A stretch of DNA of 64,000 nt from positions 118,484,001 to 118,548,000 of the forward strand of contig CM059431.1 of the NCBI GenBank assembly GCA_030390025.1, given 5' to 3'. The DNA is from Squalus acanthias (lineage: Eukaryota). The notes under the pieces were generated by a model, which saw nothing but the letters and a program-made list of their open reading frames with translations, searched no databases and was not told where the DNA came from. The translations under genes and the position numbers were made by a program. Positions within the stretch are counted from its first letter, which is position 1. Every line of letters begins with the position of its first letter. Positions 32,747 to 39,696 of this stretch are shown one piece after another.

Positions 32747-33280
32747 TGTAAGAAATTCTGATTGTCTGACAGTTTATAGAGTTCAGACCCATGGAACAGA
32801 CAACACAAAACCCAATGAATCTGTGAAACTTTTTTAATTAAATATCAACAAGAGGTTACAAGTAATTACCAGAATACAAACTGTACTCAATTCATGTACT
32901 TATTACAAGCAAGCATCTAAAATCATTTACTTTAAGCTCAGGTGATTATAAGCACCACATACGTACTAACACCAGATGAGAGGTCAATTCAACGATGACT
33001 AGACATATGACTTTAACTGGCAACTGACCAGGTCACCATCGACTATAGCCCCGAATGTCAGCCTACAACATCCCTTTTACCCCAAAACTTGGCAACTCGC
33101 CCACAGCATTCGTGTCCCAAACTGTGTTGATAATGTTGTTTTCCTCTCTTTCTCTCTCTCTTCCTATCTGTTTTGACGCTTAGTTAACCAAGGCCAGACA
33201 TTCAAGGATTGGAGAGAGTCGTTGTTTTTCACATCTGCAGGGTTCTTGACTCGTGGTTCTCACAGAATTTTCAAGATCTT
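32747..33280 (-). repeat. 3' LTR (U3 start deleted)
   Basis: Direct repeat of 39035-39561, roughly 95% identical by eye. Confidence 0.95.
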
Positions 33281-33294
33281 GGAATTTTCAAGAT

Positions 33295-33960
33295 CGTATT
33301 TTCCGATCCCTACGAGTGTGTATGAGGTGTGTGCACACCCGTAAGGACCTCGCAAATGCCGGTTTCAGGCATGCGAAGTGCATGCGCTGAAAACCGGCAT
33401 TTCCGATCTGTCAAGAATCCTCTTGACAGATCGGACGCCTGCCCTTGAGAAGGGCCTCTGCGGGCGATAGTTCCACTTTCTGCAGAACCTCCGCCCGCTG
33501 AAATCACTTAAACATCTTGCGCCTGGTAAAAGCAGGCATAAGGCCTGCTTTTACCAGCATAAGAGTTTAAAAAAGTTAAAAAAAAATGTTTTCACTCATT
33601 TACAATTTAAAAATACTTTTAAAAAAGGTAAGTTTATTTTTAGCCCCGTAAAAAACTTTAATTTTTTTTCAAAAATTAAATTTTTGTTCATAATATTTAA
33701 TTTAATGTAATTTTAACTAATTTTAAAAATGTGATTTCAAAAAAAAAATTATTTAATGTTTTGATGTGTTTTTTCATTGATCTCCATTCATACTTTTAAC
33801 GGGTCTAAGCTGAGAGACCTGTCAAAAGTATGAAGGGGGATTCCCTTCTTCCATTGGCTCCCCATGGCCCACGTGATCCCAGGGACGCTTGCAAACTGCA
33901 TGGGCCCCTGGGATACCTGGGCCCTGCGCATTTCATCGTGGAGAGGCCCAGGAGCGGAAA
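33295..33960. mobile_element. Harbinger-type MITE, truncated
   Basis: Colinear with 26028 to about 26685; lacks the first 4 TIR bases and the right end. Confidence 0.88.
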
Positions 33961-33961
33961 T

Positions 33962-35670
33962 GCTTGTGGCGTCTGTTGATTTGACAAGTTATTATCAATA
34001 AGTATAAAACAATCACCAACTGAACAATGACTAAAACATGGGAGGTCATTCTTATCCAGGGGTGAACCTCGATATTCATACCGATATCCCACCAAGATGA
34101 ATCATCCCCAATCTTAGATATTTCTTTGCGCAGATTCTGTTTTTTCTGGGCCAAGGTATAAAAGTGCTTTTGAGACTGACTAACTCATTTCATTAACTCT
34201 ACCAGGTGTTCTGGTAGAGGTGGAATGTCACAGCTGAATTGAGTCACATACTGGTATAATTGCTCTTTTAATTCATCTTCTACAGCGATATCTACTTGCC
34301 TATGTGAATAAATGCTGAATAAAACCCGCGCTCCAAGTCTTACAAGTTGGACTGGGGTAAACCAAATAGTTCCCGCCGCAATGGGATAAGTCAGGTTGTT
34401 ACCATACTGGTATTCCCGGTGTATGGTGGTGACACCCTCGGAACGCAGATTGTACGGGGAAAAGCTGTCCTGCAACCACTTTCATGATGCAGTTCCATTC
34501 TATCCCATCCCAATCAAATCTATTAACAAGGGAGGTTCCGGTATTAAAAACAATGGCTGCATCATTTATCAGACCCCGTCGTGTTCTGATATGGTCCCCT
34601 TTAACCCTGTACCTGACATTGTTTCCTTCAGTGATCTCAGTATTTTCCCCAAAGTTATTGTTAAATCCATTACCATCTCCTGAGCCCTTGCGATATAACG
34701 GTTCTAATTCTGATTCTGCCAGTGTTATGCTGGCCCTTTCCCAAAATCCTTCTATTAATTCCCATTCCATTCTCCCATATAACCGCGCTGTTTCTAGTTC
34801 GCACCAGTTCGGTATTCCCACCTCGGTCAGATTCAATATCACAGGTACCACTTCATGATGCACATTATGGTACAATACCATCCGAGTTGGGATTACCATG
34901 AACCCAGTTGTCGGCCCCGGAGAGTGTTTGGGACAGACAACCCGGTTTCCTGTTGTTCTTCCCGTGGTTGTGTTTTATTCATGGGGGGGAGTTTAGGACG
35001 GACTTTCAATTCCACCGTGTGTATTCCGGTTTTACATTCCTAACATGATAATGTGGGCAACCCTCTGAACCCCTACACGGCCTTCCCTCCCTGTCCATGG
35101 ACCATTGCTAGGGACCCCTGTCATCTATTCCATACACTTAGATACGTTTCCCGCCTATCCAGTGGACGGGAGCTCCACAGAGCGGCTCTGCGGATATAAA
35201 ATTATGGTTAGATAGCGTTTCCGAAGGGTTTATGCATCCATAGATTCCCTCATGCTCCTGCCACCATCGTGGCCAACACAACAGAGTGTCTCCCACTGCT
35301 TGGGATTGGGTCGGGCTTCCTACATTTCCCCGAGGGTTCCCTATCTGATAATGCCTTGAATGGTTACCTGGTTCTGCTTGTAAAAACCACACCCTTGGCC
35401 CGGTGGGGCGATCTTTGCATTTTATGCAGACCCTCCCTACCTTCCTGGATCTCATAAGTGGTAACCCATACTGTCCCTGAATACACGGTTTCACAATCAC
35501 CCTTGATGTACTGGAGGGTAATGTTTCCAGTGGTGTCTCCGGGGCAACTGCAATCGAACTATTATAGGGAAAATAGTTAGTGTTGGTCCAGTATGCCGAA
35601 TAGGCTGACAGGATACTTTGAGATAGAGCAGAATCCCGATCATTGGCCAGAATAATTCCTTCATTTTATA
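33962..35670 (-). pseudogene. env: env-like class I fusion glycoprotein, disrupted
   Basis: ORF pieces 35138-35500, 34399-34899, 34185-34475 and 33933-34154; furin-like RTRR then GLINDAAIVFNTGTSLVN; SSWWDIG; TM segment VLVIVQLVIVLYLLII followed by basic residues; lies between integrase and 3' LTR. Confidence 0.8.
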
Positions 35671-36059
35671 CAGTTCAGCCTCTCAATACTGATGTATTTT
35701 TAAAACAAAACAAAACGGGACTTCCCACTTTTCTTTTTCTGCATCGGGGAATTTTCGACTCCTACCACTGATGATACCTCAAGGGTGTCTTTTTATTTCA
35801 TTTACTACGTCGTGGGGTAGGAGGGGTCTGTTGGATTTGTCTGCGGACAGGAGGTGGTTCCGAGCCTGGGGATGAGGAGGTTTCTACAGCTCCCATGTCC
35901 TGTCCACCTTCATTTGGATCATACTGTACCTGTGGAGGCACCACTTCAGGCAAGGGCGCCTCATTGGGTGGGAGTGTCCCATTAGGCGCCCCTTCATCAT
36001 CATCTCACTGGAGAGGATAAATCCAGCTCACCATGCTCAATCTTGGCTTGTTGTCTTCT

Positions 36060-38310: not shown

Positions 38311-38992
38311 TTAATTTGTCTCAGCACAGTGTCGGTAAAACTTTAAGTTTCTCTTTTTTTCCCTTCTTTTAAATTGCCATCTCAGCAGCTTTCCCTGGCT
38401 CTCCAAATCCCTGTTTTTTTCCCTTTCTTGGCCGAGTTTCAGATTGGTTAGCCTACAACTTAGATCTTTTTCCATCTTTATCTCCCACTCTTTAATCCGC
38501 TTATTACATTCAGTGTGGTCCCCACGAGCACTCCATTCCTCTAGAAACTGTTTCTGGGTGACCCTAAACCCAACCTTCAGGTCCTCATTGATCTTTTCTG
38601 CCTGCTCTGACTGATGTCCCTGTTTGGATAGTTCTTTTGACATGGCATCGCATTGATTCTGATTATTTATTCCCTGGCTCTCGAGTTGTTGTTCTTTATT
38701 ACACTACCTCTCCTCCTGTTCTAACTTTTCCTCGAGCCTGTTTCTACGTTCCCTTTCTTCTTCTGTTTCTTTTCTTAACTTGATCTTTACCCTTTCATCA
38801 GATTTAACCTGCCTCTGATAGGCCAATAAACAAATGGATTTCCTTAACCTTTGCTGACACATGGACCCTTGGGTCCACTGTTCAGCCTCCAATACTGGAT
38901 CATCACCATCTATAATGACCTGTACCCACCCCTCCCTGAGTGGTAACTTTACTGTCACATACCTAGTGACTAACTCATCCATTGTCTTTGCC
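38311..38992 (-). pseudogene. Coiled-coil-rich ORF in gag position, disrupted
   Basis: MAKTMDELVTRYV.. starts just after the PBS; K/E-rich heptads continue in 38311-38643. Confidence 0.6.
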
Positions 38993-39010
38993 ATTGTTTG
39001 TTCCGAACAG

Positions 39011-39028
39011 GTCCCTGTTCGGGCGCCA
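39011..39028 (-). promoter_or_regulatory. Primer binding site, tRNA-Lys(UUU)/Lys3
   Basis: TGGCGCCCGAACAGGGAC, an 18/18 match to the canonical Lys3 PBS, 6 nt from the LTR end. Confidence 0.95.
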
Positions 39029-39034
39029 ATTATC

Positions 39035-39696
39035 TGTAAGAAATTCTGATTGTCTGACAGTTTATAGAGTTCAGACACATGGAACAGACAACACAAAACC
39101 CAATGAATCTATGAAACTTCTTTACTTAAAAATCAACAAGAGGTTACAAGTAATTCCCAGAATACAAACTGTACTCAATTCATGTACTTATTACAAGCAA
39201 ACATCTAAAATCAGTTACTTTAAGCTCAGGTGATTATAAGCACCACATACGTACTAACACCAGATGAGAGGTCAATTCAACGATGACTAGACGTATGACT
39301 TTATCTGGCAACTGACCAGTTCACCATCGACTATAGCCCTGAATGTCAGTGTCCAATAACACTTATACCCCAAAACTCGCCAACTCGGACACAGCATTCG
39401 TGTCCCAAACTATGTGGATAATGTAGTTTTTTCTCTCTCTCTCTTCCTATCTATTTTGACGCTTAGTTAACCAAGGCCAGACATTCAAGGATTGGAGAGA
39501 GTCGTTGTTTTTCACATCTGCAGGTTGTTGACTTGTGGTTCTCACAGAATTTTCAAGATCTTATCTTTTGAAGGAAAAGTACCAGCACATCATTTATTTT
39601 TCAAATGTTTTAGCAAAGCAGTCTCTTGCGCATTAAAGCTTGTCAGTACAATTGGTCACTTTTAGATTCAGTCAAGTTTACCATGACAGTGTTACA
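39035..39696 (-). repeat. 5' LTR (662 bp)
   Basis: TGTAAC..CTTACA on the minus strand, bounded by the TSD and the PBS. Confidence 0.95.

What the first reader, a model, noticed from the sequence alone, without database searches (positions are those of the whole stretch)
32747..39696. Env-bearing LTR retroelement with a Lys3 PBS and an atypical class I fusion protein
Seen: LTRs, a 4-bp TSD, a perfect HIV-type Lys3 PBS, a coiled-coil ORF in gag position, a GPY/F integrase, and a downstream glycoprotein with an RTRR cleavage site, an apolar peptide, a heptad region, a WW membrane-proximal motif and a TM helix. I see no gamma-type immunosuppressive domain or CX6CC motif, although part of the TM subunit looks deleted near 34500. 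Inference: this env may belong with F-protein-like envs (such as those of lokiretroviruses or errantivirus-like elements) rather than ordinary fish ERV envs. From memory, lokiretroviruses were reported mainly outside cartilaginous fishes, so this could be an undescribed lineage.
Basis: partly seen in the sequence, partly recalled or inferred. Interest (0 to 1): 0.78.

Follow-up and report, generated by a model that had tools for sequence, protein, structure and literature searches.

The report
Dead shark retrovirus copy, F-like envelope
This is a broken, pol-less copy of a very abundant shark endogenous retrovirus whose envelope protein is built like the fusion (F) proteins of paramyxoviruses and foamy viruses, which shows that this envelope type is widespread among fish-type retroviruses.

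Summary
On the minus strand of 32747-39696 lies an LTR element with a 4-bp duplication, a tRNA-Lys(UUU) primer site, the start of gag, the last half of integrase, and an env with a furin site, fusion peptide, WW motif and membrane anchor.

The copy is dead. It has no protease, RT or RNase H, about 227 env residues are deleted, and its 3' LTR is cut by a foreign repeat. The missing pol is a family trait shared by roughly a thousand or more copies.

Relatives with pol have PR-RT-tether-RNaseH-IN. In unrooted Pol trees they sit beside a 10.7-kb fish retrovirus genome (L053) and the foamy viruses. They fall outside the gamma, delta, beta and epsilon types.

So "F-like env" is supported. "Lokiretrovirus or errantivirus" is not, although no loki reference could be put in the tree. 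Foamy-like ERVs of sharks and frogs were already catalogued from pol. This scan had also noted related envelopes elsewhere in this genome.

The parts
39697..39700 (-). Target-site duplication (GTGG on the minus strand), 5' side
   Evidence: Sequence read. The same four bases follow the 3' LTR.
39035..39696 (-). 5' LTR, 662 nt, with TG...CA ends
   Evidence: The start is confirmed by other copies.
39011..39028 (-). Primer binding site complementary to tRNA-Lys(UUU)
   Evidence: Single exact match in the window, 0 of 100 shuffles. tRNA-Lys(ttt) genes L049 and L050 end with its complement. Copies L027 and L026 carry it with 1 and 2 mismatches.
38311..38994 (-). N-terminal part of gag, coiled-coil rich (ATG at 38994, one internal stop at about 38703); the capsid and nucleocapsid regions are missing
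   Evidence: The DNA matches the first gag ORF of L029 and L033. No Pfam family at the curated cut-off.
36822..38310 (-). Non-coding segment 'X' that stands where the rest of gag and PR-RT-RH would be; it is a family trait
   Evidence: No minus-strand ORF of 60 aa or more. Shared over its full length by other copies at 82-93% identity, 2989 candidates. Parts of it match a segment that lies after pol in L029 and L033.
36105..36821 (-). C-terminal half of the integrase core plus the GPY/F module (36162-36182)
   Evidence: Pfam rve E 2.2e-4, below cut-off. 74-78% identical to the IN part of 1104- and 1291-aa pol frames elsewhere in the genome.
35798..36004 (-). Pro-rich C-terminal tail of pol, out of frame with IN here
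   Evidence: It matches the tail of the L029 pol ORF.
34588..35664 (-). env surface subunit: signal peptide 35602-35664, then pieces in other frames (35138-35665, 34588-34974)
   Evidence: Aligns with SU of relatives.
34576..34587 (-). Furin-type cleavage site RTRR
   Evidence: A basic site stands at this column in relatives of both clades.
34522..34575 (-). Fusion peptide at the new N-terminus of the membrane subunit
   Evidence: The stretch is conserved between clades that are 38% identical overall.
34504..34521 (-). Deletion junction: about 227 residues (most of heptad repeat A and the beta-rich core) are missing here
   Evidence: Comparison with P0001. All 13 other copies spanning this point have at least 638 extra bp.
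33961..34503 (-). Rest of the membrane subunit: end of the beta domain, heptad repeat B, WW motif (34086-34100), TM helix (33984-34049); split by a frameshift and a stop
33295..33800 (.). Foreign 506-bp high-copy repeat inserted at the 3' end. Together with about 160 unassigned bp (33801-33960) it replaces the env tail, the polypurine tract and LTR nt 1-134.
   Evidence: 5894 candidates in the genome, 40 scored at 89-92% identity. Alignment with L028.
32747..33280 (-). 3' LTR, truncated at its 5' end
   Evidence: 93.1% identical to 39562-39035. K2P distance 0.061 over 528 sites.
32743..32746 (-). Target-site duplication, 3' side

Best explanation
The element is one old, dead copy of a high-copy, non-autonomous derivative family of a cartilaginous-fish endogenous retrovirus lineage.

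Structure and spread. The family layout is LTR, Lys(UUU) PBS, start of gag, a 1.5-kb non-coding segment X, the last half of integrase, env, LTR. With no protease, RT or RNase H it could only have been copied in trans, by Gag-Pol from autonomous relatives in the same genome. This step is inferred. It is based on the retained LTRs, PBS and leader, and on the existence of relatives with gag, an in-frame stop, PR-RT-tether-RNaseH-IN, and in one clade env.

Lineage. In unrooted Pol trees the lineage sits between epsilon-type retroviruses and foamy viruses, next to a 10.7-kb fish retrovirus genome (L053). This most likely corresponds to the 'foamy-like' or snakehead-retrovirus-like ERVs that the literature describes from sharks and frogs using pol.

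Envelope. The Env is a class I fusion protein of the F-like subclass ('class Ib' in PMC11468914). It has a signal peptide and a surface subunit. A furin cut exposes an N-terminal fusion peptide. Then come a long heptad repeat A, a beta-rich core of three nested domains, heptad repeat B, a WW membrane-proximal motif and a single anchor. By analogy with F and foamy Env, an intact Env would act as a metastable trimer that refolds into a six-helix bundle. This is inferred from the fold; nothing was assayed.

State of the window copy. It cannot do any of this. Most of heptad repeat A and the core are deleted, the frame is broken, and the polypurine tract and the start of the 3' LTR are lost.
For: Anatomy of the copy.

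Family-level layout and copy number: other copies share segment X and the truncated IN (L027 aligns over element positions 494-4136 at 88.6%). Candidate counts are 1159 for IN DNA, 2989 for X and 6665 for an env piece.

Autonomous relatives: the L029 pol ORF of 1291 aa carries RVP, RVT_1, RT_RNaseH, RNase_H, Integrase_H2C2 and rve. Its best solved relatives are MLV RT 4e-75, Ty3 5e-68, foamy PR-RT 2.5e-65 and PFV integrase 1.8e-33. Gag has a CCHC knuckle. In the second clade one in-frame stop separates gag and pol (ORF coordinates).

Pol trees (IQ-TREE quick, SH-aLRT): shark+L053 95-97, with foamy 97-99, with epsilon type 89; gamma, delta and beta types lie outside. Without L053 the shark rows still join the foamy viruses at 97. 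The AU test rejects a shark+epsilon clade, p 0.0011.

Env homology: a profile of 59 family members against PDB sequences gave foamy Env 8rm1_D at E 2.3e-4 and 8rm0_A at 1.2e-3 as the only hits below 0.1. hhalign gave epsilon-type Env (L112) probability 96%, E 1.8e-9, 343 columns; L053 Env 92%, 6e-7; 12 foamy Envs 88%, 3e-6; control with 12 gamma/delta Envs 8%.

Host range of env relatives: of 20 looked up, 11 are from sharks or a skate, 6 from frogs and 3 are unnamed. This matches the shark-frog grouping of foamy-like ERVs in PMC5512871 (passages read).
Against: The trees are unrooted. They hold no lokiretrovirus, Ty3/Gypsy, lentivirus or published shark ERV sequence. The tool warns that long branches meet (L053 1.5-1.6, foamy stem about 2.2). 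If the root lies on the foamy branch, the shark lineage is a basal orthoretrovirus rather than 'foamy-like'.

The link to the published shark and frog foamy-like ERVs rests on host range and tree position, not on any sequence comparison.

Mobilisation in trans is inferred; no transcript or recent insertion was examined.

Why segment X lies before IN in this family but after pol in the L029 type is unexplained.
Confidence: 0.75

Rival explanations
1. It is a lokiretrovirus, the sister lineage of all sampled retroviruses whose Env resembles Mononegavirales F. This would be its first record in cartilaginous fishes.
For: The Env fold is F-like. Env relatives occur in amphibians, a known loki host class (PMC7947760, section 5 read). 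Pol has the dual RNase H that loki also has. No loki sequence was available, so the tree cannot exclude it.
Against: 0 of 59 env family members match PF00523, even at E up to about 0.07, whereas the paper reports E 2.2e-7 for a loki Env. The only sequence-level matches are to Envs of canonical retroviruses: foamy, L053 and the epsilon type. Pol groups with an exogenous-type retrovirus genome (L053) and the foamy viruses at 95-99 SH-aLRT. No teleost was among the 20 env relatives looked up, although the paper reports loki in at least 120 ray-finned species. No SMC-like Pfam match was found in the gag-region ORFs.
Confidence: 0.07
2. It is an endogenous foamy virus in the strict sense (Spumaretrovirinae).
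For: The Pol rows share a branch with 12 foamy viruses (97-99 SH-aLRT). PFV integrase is the best solved integrase relative. The env profile matches foamy Env. The TSD is 4 bp. [quoted passage not shown]
Against: Gag of relatives has a CCHC zinc knuckle. Gag and pol are separated by one in-frame stop, whereas in the foamy genomes fetched they lie in overlapping, different frames. No member matches Pfam Foamy_virus_ENV. The PBS is Lys(UUU) here and Arg(TCG) in the sister clade. Env is followed by the LTR after about 110 bp, with no accessory genes. The foamy stem is very long (about 2.2), so the join may partly be long-branch attraction.
Confidence: 0.1
3. It is an epsilonretrovirus-like ERV, like the elephant-shark lineages II and III and the Xenopus ERVs described in the literature.
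For: The best env profile match is to the Env of L112 (E 1.8e-9, 343 columns). L112 is a 12.7-kb genome with a cyclin-like ORF after env. Walleye retrovirus Envs appear among the structural hits. Gag-stop-pol and the CCHC knuckle fit. Hosts are sharks and frogs (PMC4422223 read).
Against: In the Pol tree the three epsilon-type rows form their own clade (100). The shark rows join L053 and the foamy viruses instead (99). The AU test rejects a shark+epsilon clade, p 0.0011, but the group was named after the tree had been seen.
Confidence: 0.07
4. It is a Ty3/Gypsy (errantivirus-like) element that captured a baculovirus-type F env.
For: There is a GPY/F module in IN. The fold is F-like, with baculovirus F proteins among the BFVD hits. 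One homolog (P0023, a fusion with an F-box protein) has a sub-threshold Baculo_F match, E 0.0011.
Against: Pol has the retroviral tether plus a separate RNase_H (PF00075) domain. It clusters among retroviruses. 0 of 59 env members match Baculo_F. PBS use and gag-stop-pol are retroviral. A preprint reports no vertebrate relatives of invertebrate errantiviruses (10.1101/2023.10.26.564294, passages read).
Confidence: 0.01

Closest known systems
Shark and frog 'foamy-like' ERVs (CmiFLERV, XtrFLERV; Aiewsakun & Katzourakis 2017, PMC5512871), elephant-shark CmiERV lineage I, which clusters with snakehead retrovirus (Han 2015, PMC4422223), and catshark ERV-Spuma (PMC10699275)
   Same: Cartilaginous-fish host. 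The pairing of sharks with frogs is also seen for the env relatives here. Pol lies near the foamy viruses but outside them.
   Different: No sequence from those papers could be compared here, so identity is inferred. Those papers found only pol, or 'no Gag or Env domains', in sharks and Xenopus (passages read). Here gag, env and a pol-less high-copy derivative are described.
L053 = IMGVR_UViG_638276818_000001, a 10,688-nt fish-type retrovirus genome. Its Arg-type PBS and 3' ORF are features I recall for snakehead retrovirus; this is not verified.
   Same: It is the nearest Pol in the trees (32% identity over 1199 residues, E 4e-105; SH-aLRT 95-97). It has gag-stop-pol, a CCHC and coiled-coil Gag, and a homologous Env (hhalign 92%, E 6e-7).
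   Different: Its Env is 1134 aa, against about 826 aa in the shark sister clade. It has an extra 3' ORF. Its PBS differs from the window's. Its branch is very long.
Foamy virus Env gp130 (PDB 8RM0, 8RM1; PMC11468914)
   Different: No Pfam Foamy_virus_ENV match. An ordinary signal peptide replaces the long leader peptide with a second membrane span. The surface subunit is different.
Paramyxovirus and pneumovirus F proteins
   Different: No sequence-level match (PF00523, 0 of 59). The shark Env carries its own receptor-binding surface subunit of about 350 residues, and it is encoded by a retrovirus.
Epsilon-type retroviral Env (L112; walleye retrovirus Envs in BFVD)
   Same: Strongest profile match (E 1.8e-9, 343 columns).
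   Different: Pol does not group with them. Their Env is about 1229 aa, and they carry a cyclin-like accessory gene.
Lokiretroviruses (PMC7947760)
   Same: Retrovirus-like elements with F-like Env; amphibian hosts.
   Different: Loki Env matches PF00523 directly and this Env does not. Loki was not reported from cartilaginous fishes. The Pol placement could not be tested.

Membership tests
Retroviridae (canonical retrovirus or ERV) | LTRs with TG...CA ends, a short TSD, and a tRNA primer binding site next to the 5' LTR | tested here: met
Retroviridae (canonical retrovirus or ERV) | Pol with PR, RT, a degenerate RNase H 'tether', a second RNase H, and IN | tested here: met
   Met in autonomous relatives of the family (L029). 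Not met in the window copy, which keeps only the C-terminal half of IN.
Retroviridae (canonical retrovirus or ERV) | env gene between pol and the 3' LTR | tested here: met
F-like ('class Ib') viral fusion proteins | Furin-type cleavage directly upstream of a fusion peptide, then HRA, a beta-rich core, HRB and a TM anchor | tested here: met
   Relatives. In the window, HRA and the core are deleted.
F-like ('class Ib') viral fusion proteins | Three-domain F core fold | tested here: met
Lokiretrovirus | Env with detectable sequence similarity to Pfam PF00523 (Fusion_gly) | tested here: not met
   0 of 59 family members. P0001 and the L031 Env also gave nothing.
Lokiretrovirus | RT/Pol sister to all canonical retroviruses | tested here: inconclusive
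   The shark Pol groups inside the sampled canonical retroviruses. No loki or outgroup sequence was available.
Spumaretrovirinae (foamy viruses) | Pol clusters with foamy viruses | tested here: inconclusive
   They share a branch at 97-99 SH-aLRT in unrooted trees. The root is unknown and long branches meet.
Spumaretrovirinae (foamy viruses) | Env of the Foamy_virus_ENV family (PF03408) | tested here: not met
   0 of 59. There is only remote profile-level homology.
Spumaretrovirinae (foamy viruses) | Gag without a Cys-His knuckle, and pol in its own frame overlapping gag (features as I recall them; the overlap is seen in the fetched foamy genomes) | tested here: not met
   CCHC knuckle in Gag of relatives. 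One in-frame stop lies between gag and pol.
Epsilonretrovirus | Pol clusters with walleye-type viruses | tested here: not met
   The epsilon-type rows form a separate clade. The AU test gives p 0.0011 against a joint clade.
Gamma-type Env (TLV_coat with immunosuppressive domain and CX6CC) | Homology to PF00429-type Env | tested here: not met
   hhalign probability 8%, limited to the C-terminal helix and anchor. No Pfam hit.
Errantivirus / Metaviridae with F-type env | Ty3/Gypsy-type Pol (single RNase H) and a Baculo_F (PF12259) Env | tested here: not met
   Dual RNase H. 0 of 59 members match Baculo_F. There was one sub-threshold hit in a fused protein outside that set.

The most novel reading that the evidence does not exclude
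The F-like (class Ib) envelope may be the shared, possibly ancestral, Env of a contiguous block of the retroviral Pol tree, and not a peculiarity of foamy viruses and lokiretroviruses. That block holds the epsilon type, the snakehead-like L053, the shark/frog lineage and the foamy viruses. The gamma-type Env, with its immunosuppressive domain and CX6CC, would then be a later replacement. In addition, this shark genome may hold a two-part arrangement: a pol-less family that carries env (the window type) and an env-poor family that carries gag-pol (the L029 type) share segment X and could have complemented each other.
Probability: 0.3. Interest if true: 0.75.

Novelty: new member of a known kind. 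Interest (0 to 1): 0.5.

Why it matters
Foamy virus Env was shown to be F-like only in 2024, and lokiretrovirus Env was linked to F in 2020. Here a shark/frog ERV Env, a fish retrovirus Env (L053) and an epsilon-type Env are all tied to that same fold by profile and by predicted structure. On an unrooted Pol tree these Env carriers lie together (SH-aLRT 89).

If this holds in a rooted tree with lokiretroviruses, it bears on which envelope the first retroviruses carried, and whether the gamma-type Env is a later swap. It also assigns a fold to env genes that earlier shark and frog ERV surveys could not recognise.

The window copy itself is an ordinary fossil. Its family is unusual in keeping env while losing pol, at roughly a thousand or more copies.

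My four literature searches found no paper describing an F-like Env for snakehead-like, epsilon or shark ERVs. The library lacks many subscription papers, including the 2023 J Virol paper on cartilaginous-fish foamy viruses.

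Tried and rejected
- Pfam and NCBIfam on the window's own ORFs gave nothing for env or gag.
- A single-sequence search of P0001 against PDB sequences gave nothing below E 1.
- The search for homologous proteins found nothing with P0001 or with the 59-sequence alignment, although the exhaustive HMMER search found 57 relatives. The word-index search was simply insensitive here.
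- The first AlphaFold run, with 16 sequences from this genome only, failed at pLDDT 30.
- The ESM Atlas look-up gave one unnamed chordate cluster at 0.84, which is not informative.
- Searching the genome with the PF00523 and PF12259 models gave no match. The tool used a stricter first look and its controls were silent, so this says nothing.
- Rfam at gathering threshold over 32500-40000 gave no match.
- The search for related loci in viral contigs returned only L053, twice.
- L053 Env against the foamy Env profile showed no similarity on its own (probability 0.2%). The link runs through the richer shark/frog profile.
- The search of earlier findings by sequence and by words returned nothing.
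- The J Virol 2023 paper (PMC9972966) is not held.
- Gamma-type Env was rejected.
- A shark+epsilon clade was rejected by the AU test.
- No read mapping and no complex prediction were attempted.

Full report
**What is in the window.** Read on the minus strand, 32747-39696 is an LTR element.

- The 5' LTR (39035-39696) starts TGTAAC and ends CTTACA. GTGG flanks both ends.
- The 3' LTR aligns with it only from LTR position 135 onward: 33280-32747, 93.1% over 534 columns, K2P 0.061 over 528 sites.
- Other copies show that the LTR really starts at 39696.
- The missing 134 nt, the polypurine tract and the end of env are replaced by about 160 unassigned bp plus a 506-bp repeat. That repeat has 5894 candidate copies elsewhere.
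- With d/2u, the LTR distance gives about 30 My at 1e-9 per site per year (my assumption). It gives about 140 My at the 2.2e-10 that Han assumed for the elephant shark (PMC4422223, first of two parts read). The copy is old either way.
- The flanks belong to a Harbinger-type DNA transposon. There is a DDE_Tnp_4 ORF at 40584-41192, and the two flanks lie next to each other and in order in a paralogous copy. This fits a clean insertion.

**Primer site.** The 18-mer at 39011-39028 is unique in the window (0 of 100 shuffles).

- A pattern built from its complement found 258 places in the genome. Of 4 loci fetched, 2 are tRNA-Lys(ttt) genes.
- Two other copies of the family keep the site with 1 and 2 mismatches.
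- The same 18-mer stands near the start of two beta-like reference genomes.
- The sister clade uses a different site, complementary to a tRNA-Arg(tcg) gene. Primer use therefore changed within the lineage.

**Coding content.**

- After the PBS come about 260 codons of coiled-coil-rich gag start, broken by one stop. Their DNA matches the first gag ORF of pol-bearing relatives.
- Next is about 1.5 kb with no ORF (segment X).
- Then comes the last half of the integrase core with the GPY/F stretch, followed by env in five pieces.
- There is no PR, RT or RNase H. This layout is a family trait and not an accident of this copy. L027, L026, L010 and L008 share it, and X alone has 2989 candidates at 82-93% identity.
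- Odd point: parts of X match a segment that lies after pol, in front of a remnant of env, in the pol-bearing L029 and L033 elements. I cannot explain this rearrangement.

**Relatives in the genome.** The genome is 3.7 Gb. Earlier notes of this scan call it a shark-type cartilaginous fish.

- The IN piece has 1159 DNA candidates, and the 40 scored are 88-100% identical.
- An env piece has 6665 candidates.
- More distant IN matches lie in long frames. L029 has a 1291-aa pol with RVP, RVT_1, RT_RNaseH (tether), RNase_H, Integrase_H2C2 and rve.
- A second clade (L031, L032, L043) has gag with a CCHC knuckle, one in-frame stop, pol, and an env frame of 826 aa.
- The 66 scored env copies of that second clade are 94-100% identical, so it is much younger than the window's family.
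- Its Env is 38% identical to P0001. P0001 is a 586-aa open env frame from a copy of the window's own clade (L025).

**The window's env against P0001.**

- The window's pieces are 67-82% identical to P0001.
- The RTRR site and the following apolar peptide are conserved across both clades.
- About 227 residues after the fusion peptide are absent from the window. All 13 other copies that span this point carry at least 638 bp more.
- The WW motif and the TM helix are present.

**What the Env is.**

- Single-sequence searches were blank.
- An exhaustive HMMER search with a 16-sequence profile found 57 relatives.
- Of 20 looked up, 11 are from sharks or a skate (Chiloscyllium, Mustelus, Pristiophorus, Heterodontus, Rhinoraja), 6 are from frogs (Xenopus, Bombina, Discoglossus, Pelodytes, Mantella) and 3 are unnamed. 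The named ones are nearly all labelled uncharacterized or hypothetical; one carries a 'Niban 1-like' name.
- A 59-sequence profile hit only foamy virus Env among solved proteins (8rm1_D 2.3e-4, 8rm0_A 1.2e-3; the next hit is at 0.15).
- hhalign gave: epsilon-type Env of L112, 96%, 1.8e-9, 343 columns; L053 Env, 92%, 6e-7; 12 foamy Envs, 88%, 3e-6, 125 columns; 12 gamma/delta Envs, 8% (control).
- None of the 59 members matches Pfam Fusion_gly, Foamy_virus_ENV or Baculo_F.

**Fold.**

- With the 59-sequence alignment AlphaFold gave pLDDT 73.9 for P0001, with 200 residues at 90 or above. The model has a long helix (151-271), a beta-rich core (about 300-475), a second helix and the anchor.
- Foldseek against the PDB: the top 50 are all paramyxo- or pneumovirus F, best 1ztm at E 9e-12.
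- The search over 48,161 representatives that does not rely on Foldseek put F proteins and the two foamy Env structures in ranks 1-12. Below them come only short helical matches.
- BFVD adds F-like glycoproteins of other RNA viruses, baculovirus F and the Envs of two walleye retroviruses.
- PMC11468914 (abstract and section 9 read, plus passages) defines this group as subclass Ib and shows that foamy Env belongs to it.

**Where Pol belongs.**

- Reference genomes were fetched from viral contigs with degenerate RT-motif patterns. They were labelled by Pfam on their env or accessory genes.
- Sixteen near-duplicates (85% identity or more) and two short records were dropped. Later trees were thinned further.
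- In all three trees the shark rows are one clade (100).
- They join L053 (95-97), then the foamy viruses (97-99), then the epsilon-type clade (89). Gamma-, delta- and beta-type viruses lie outside.
- Leaving L053 out does not move the shark rows.
- The AU test rejects shark+epsilon (p 0.0011), though I named that group after seeing the tree.
- Limits: quick searches with SH-aLRT support only, long branches, no root, and no loki, lentivirus, Gypsy or published shark ERV sequences.

**Reading.**

The lineage is a canonical-retrovirus lineage lying between the epsilon type and the foamy viruses, and the evidence does not place it with loki or errantiviruses.
- It best fits the shark-frog 'foamy-like' ERVs. 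For those, Aiewsakun and Katzourakis could find only pol (PMC5512871, passages). It also fits the snakehead-like CmiERV lineage I (PMC4422223).
- It is not a foamy virus in the strict sense (CCHC Gag, gag-stop-pol, no accessory genes).
- Lokiretroviruses were reported from lampreys, bony fishes, amphibians and reptiles, with Env matching PF00523 (PMC7947760, section 5 and passages). Neither that host range nor that match applies here.
- Earlier notes of this scan on the same genome named foamy Env as the closest known for related envelopes. That lead prompted the tests.

**Left open.** Three things remain unresolved: the root of the tree and the loki comparison; the origin of segment X; and whether the pol-less env family and the env-poor gag-pol family were ever partners.

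Noticed in passing
window 36822-38310; L029 8591-9311; L033 8264-8984: The 1.5-kb non-coding segment X lies between the gag start and the IN end in the window's family. In the pol-bearing L029 and L033 elements it lies after pol, in front of an env remnant. Same module, different position; the origin is unknown.
   Followed up: partly
L031, L032, L043 and the places listed: A sister clade (Env 38% identical to the window clade) has 66 scored env copies at 94-100% identity and uses a tRNA-Arg(TCG) primer site instead of Lys(UUU). It is far younger than the window's family.
   Followed up: partly
window 33295-33800: A 506-bp repeat with about 5900 candidate copies (89-92% identity) is inserted at the 3' end of the element. 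It has an A/T-rich half and a G/C-rich half with an internal inverted match. It was not classified.
   Followed up: no
window 39756-41192 and 32409-32746; L025 6770-9391: The element sits inside a Harbinger/PIF-type DNA transposon (DDE_Tnp_4 ORF at 40584-41192, E 1e-30). A second copy of the ERV family (L025, L026) is itself interrupted by a Harbinger copy.
   Followed up: partly
contig C26 of the genome: Many of the pol-bearing and env matches lie on one 44-Mb contig (C26), several within 7-17 Mb and 35-38 Mb. This suggests local duplication or a repeat-rich chromosome.
   Followed up: no
L023 1-5085 (C100): In one copy an env frame runs into about 4.5 kb of a tandem repeat that encodes an 8-residue unit (TDPGVIQC-like). 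This gives a spurious open frame of at least 1695 aa, which runs off the end of the locus.
   Followed up: no
P0006, P0015, P0024 (env relatives in a shark, a frog and an unnamed source): Three of 59 env family members have weak Ig_3 matches in the surface subunit, and UniRef names one 'Ig-like domain-containing'. This agrees with the earlier scan notes on an Ig-like head.
   Followed up: partly
P0013, P0023, P0025, P0009: Some annotated host 'proteins' (cadherin, F-box, zinc-finger, Niban-like) carry fragments of this env at one end. These are probably gene-model chimeras with ERV copies.
   Followed up: no
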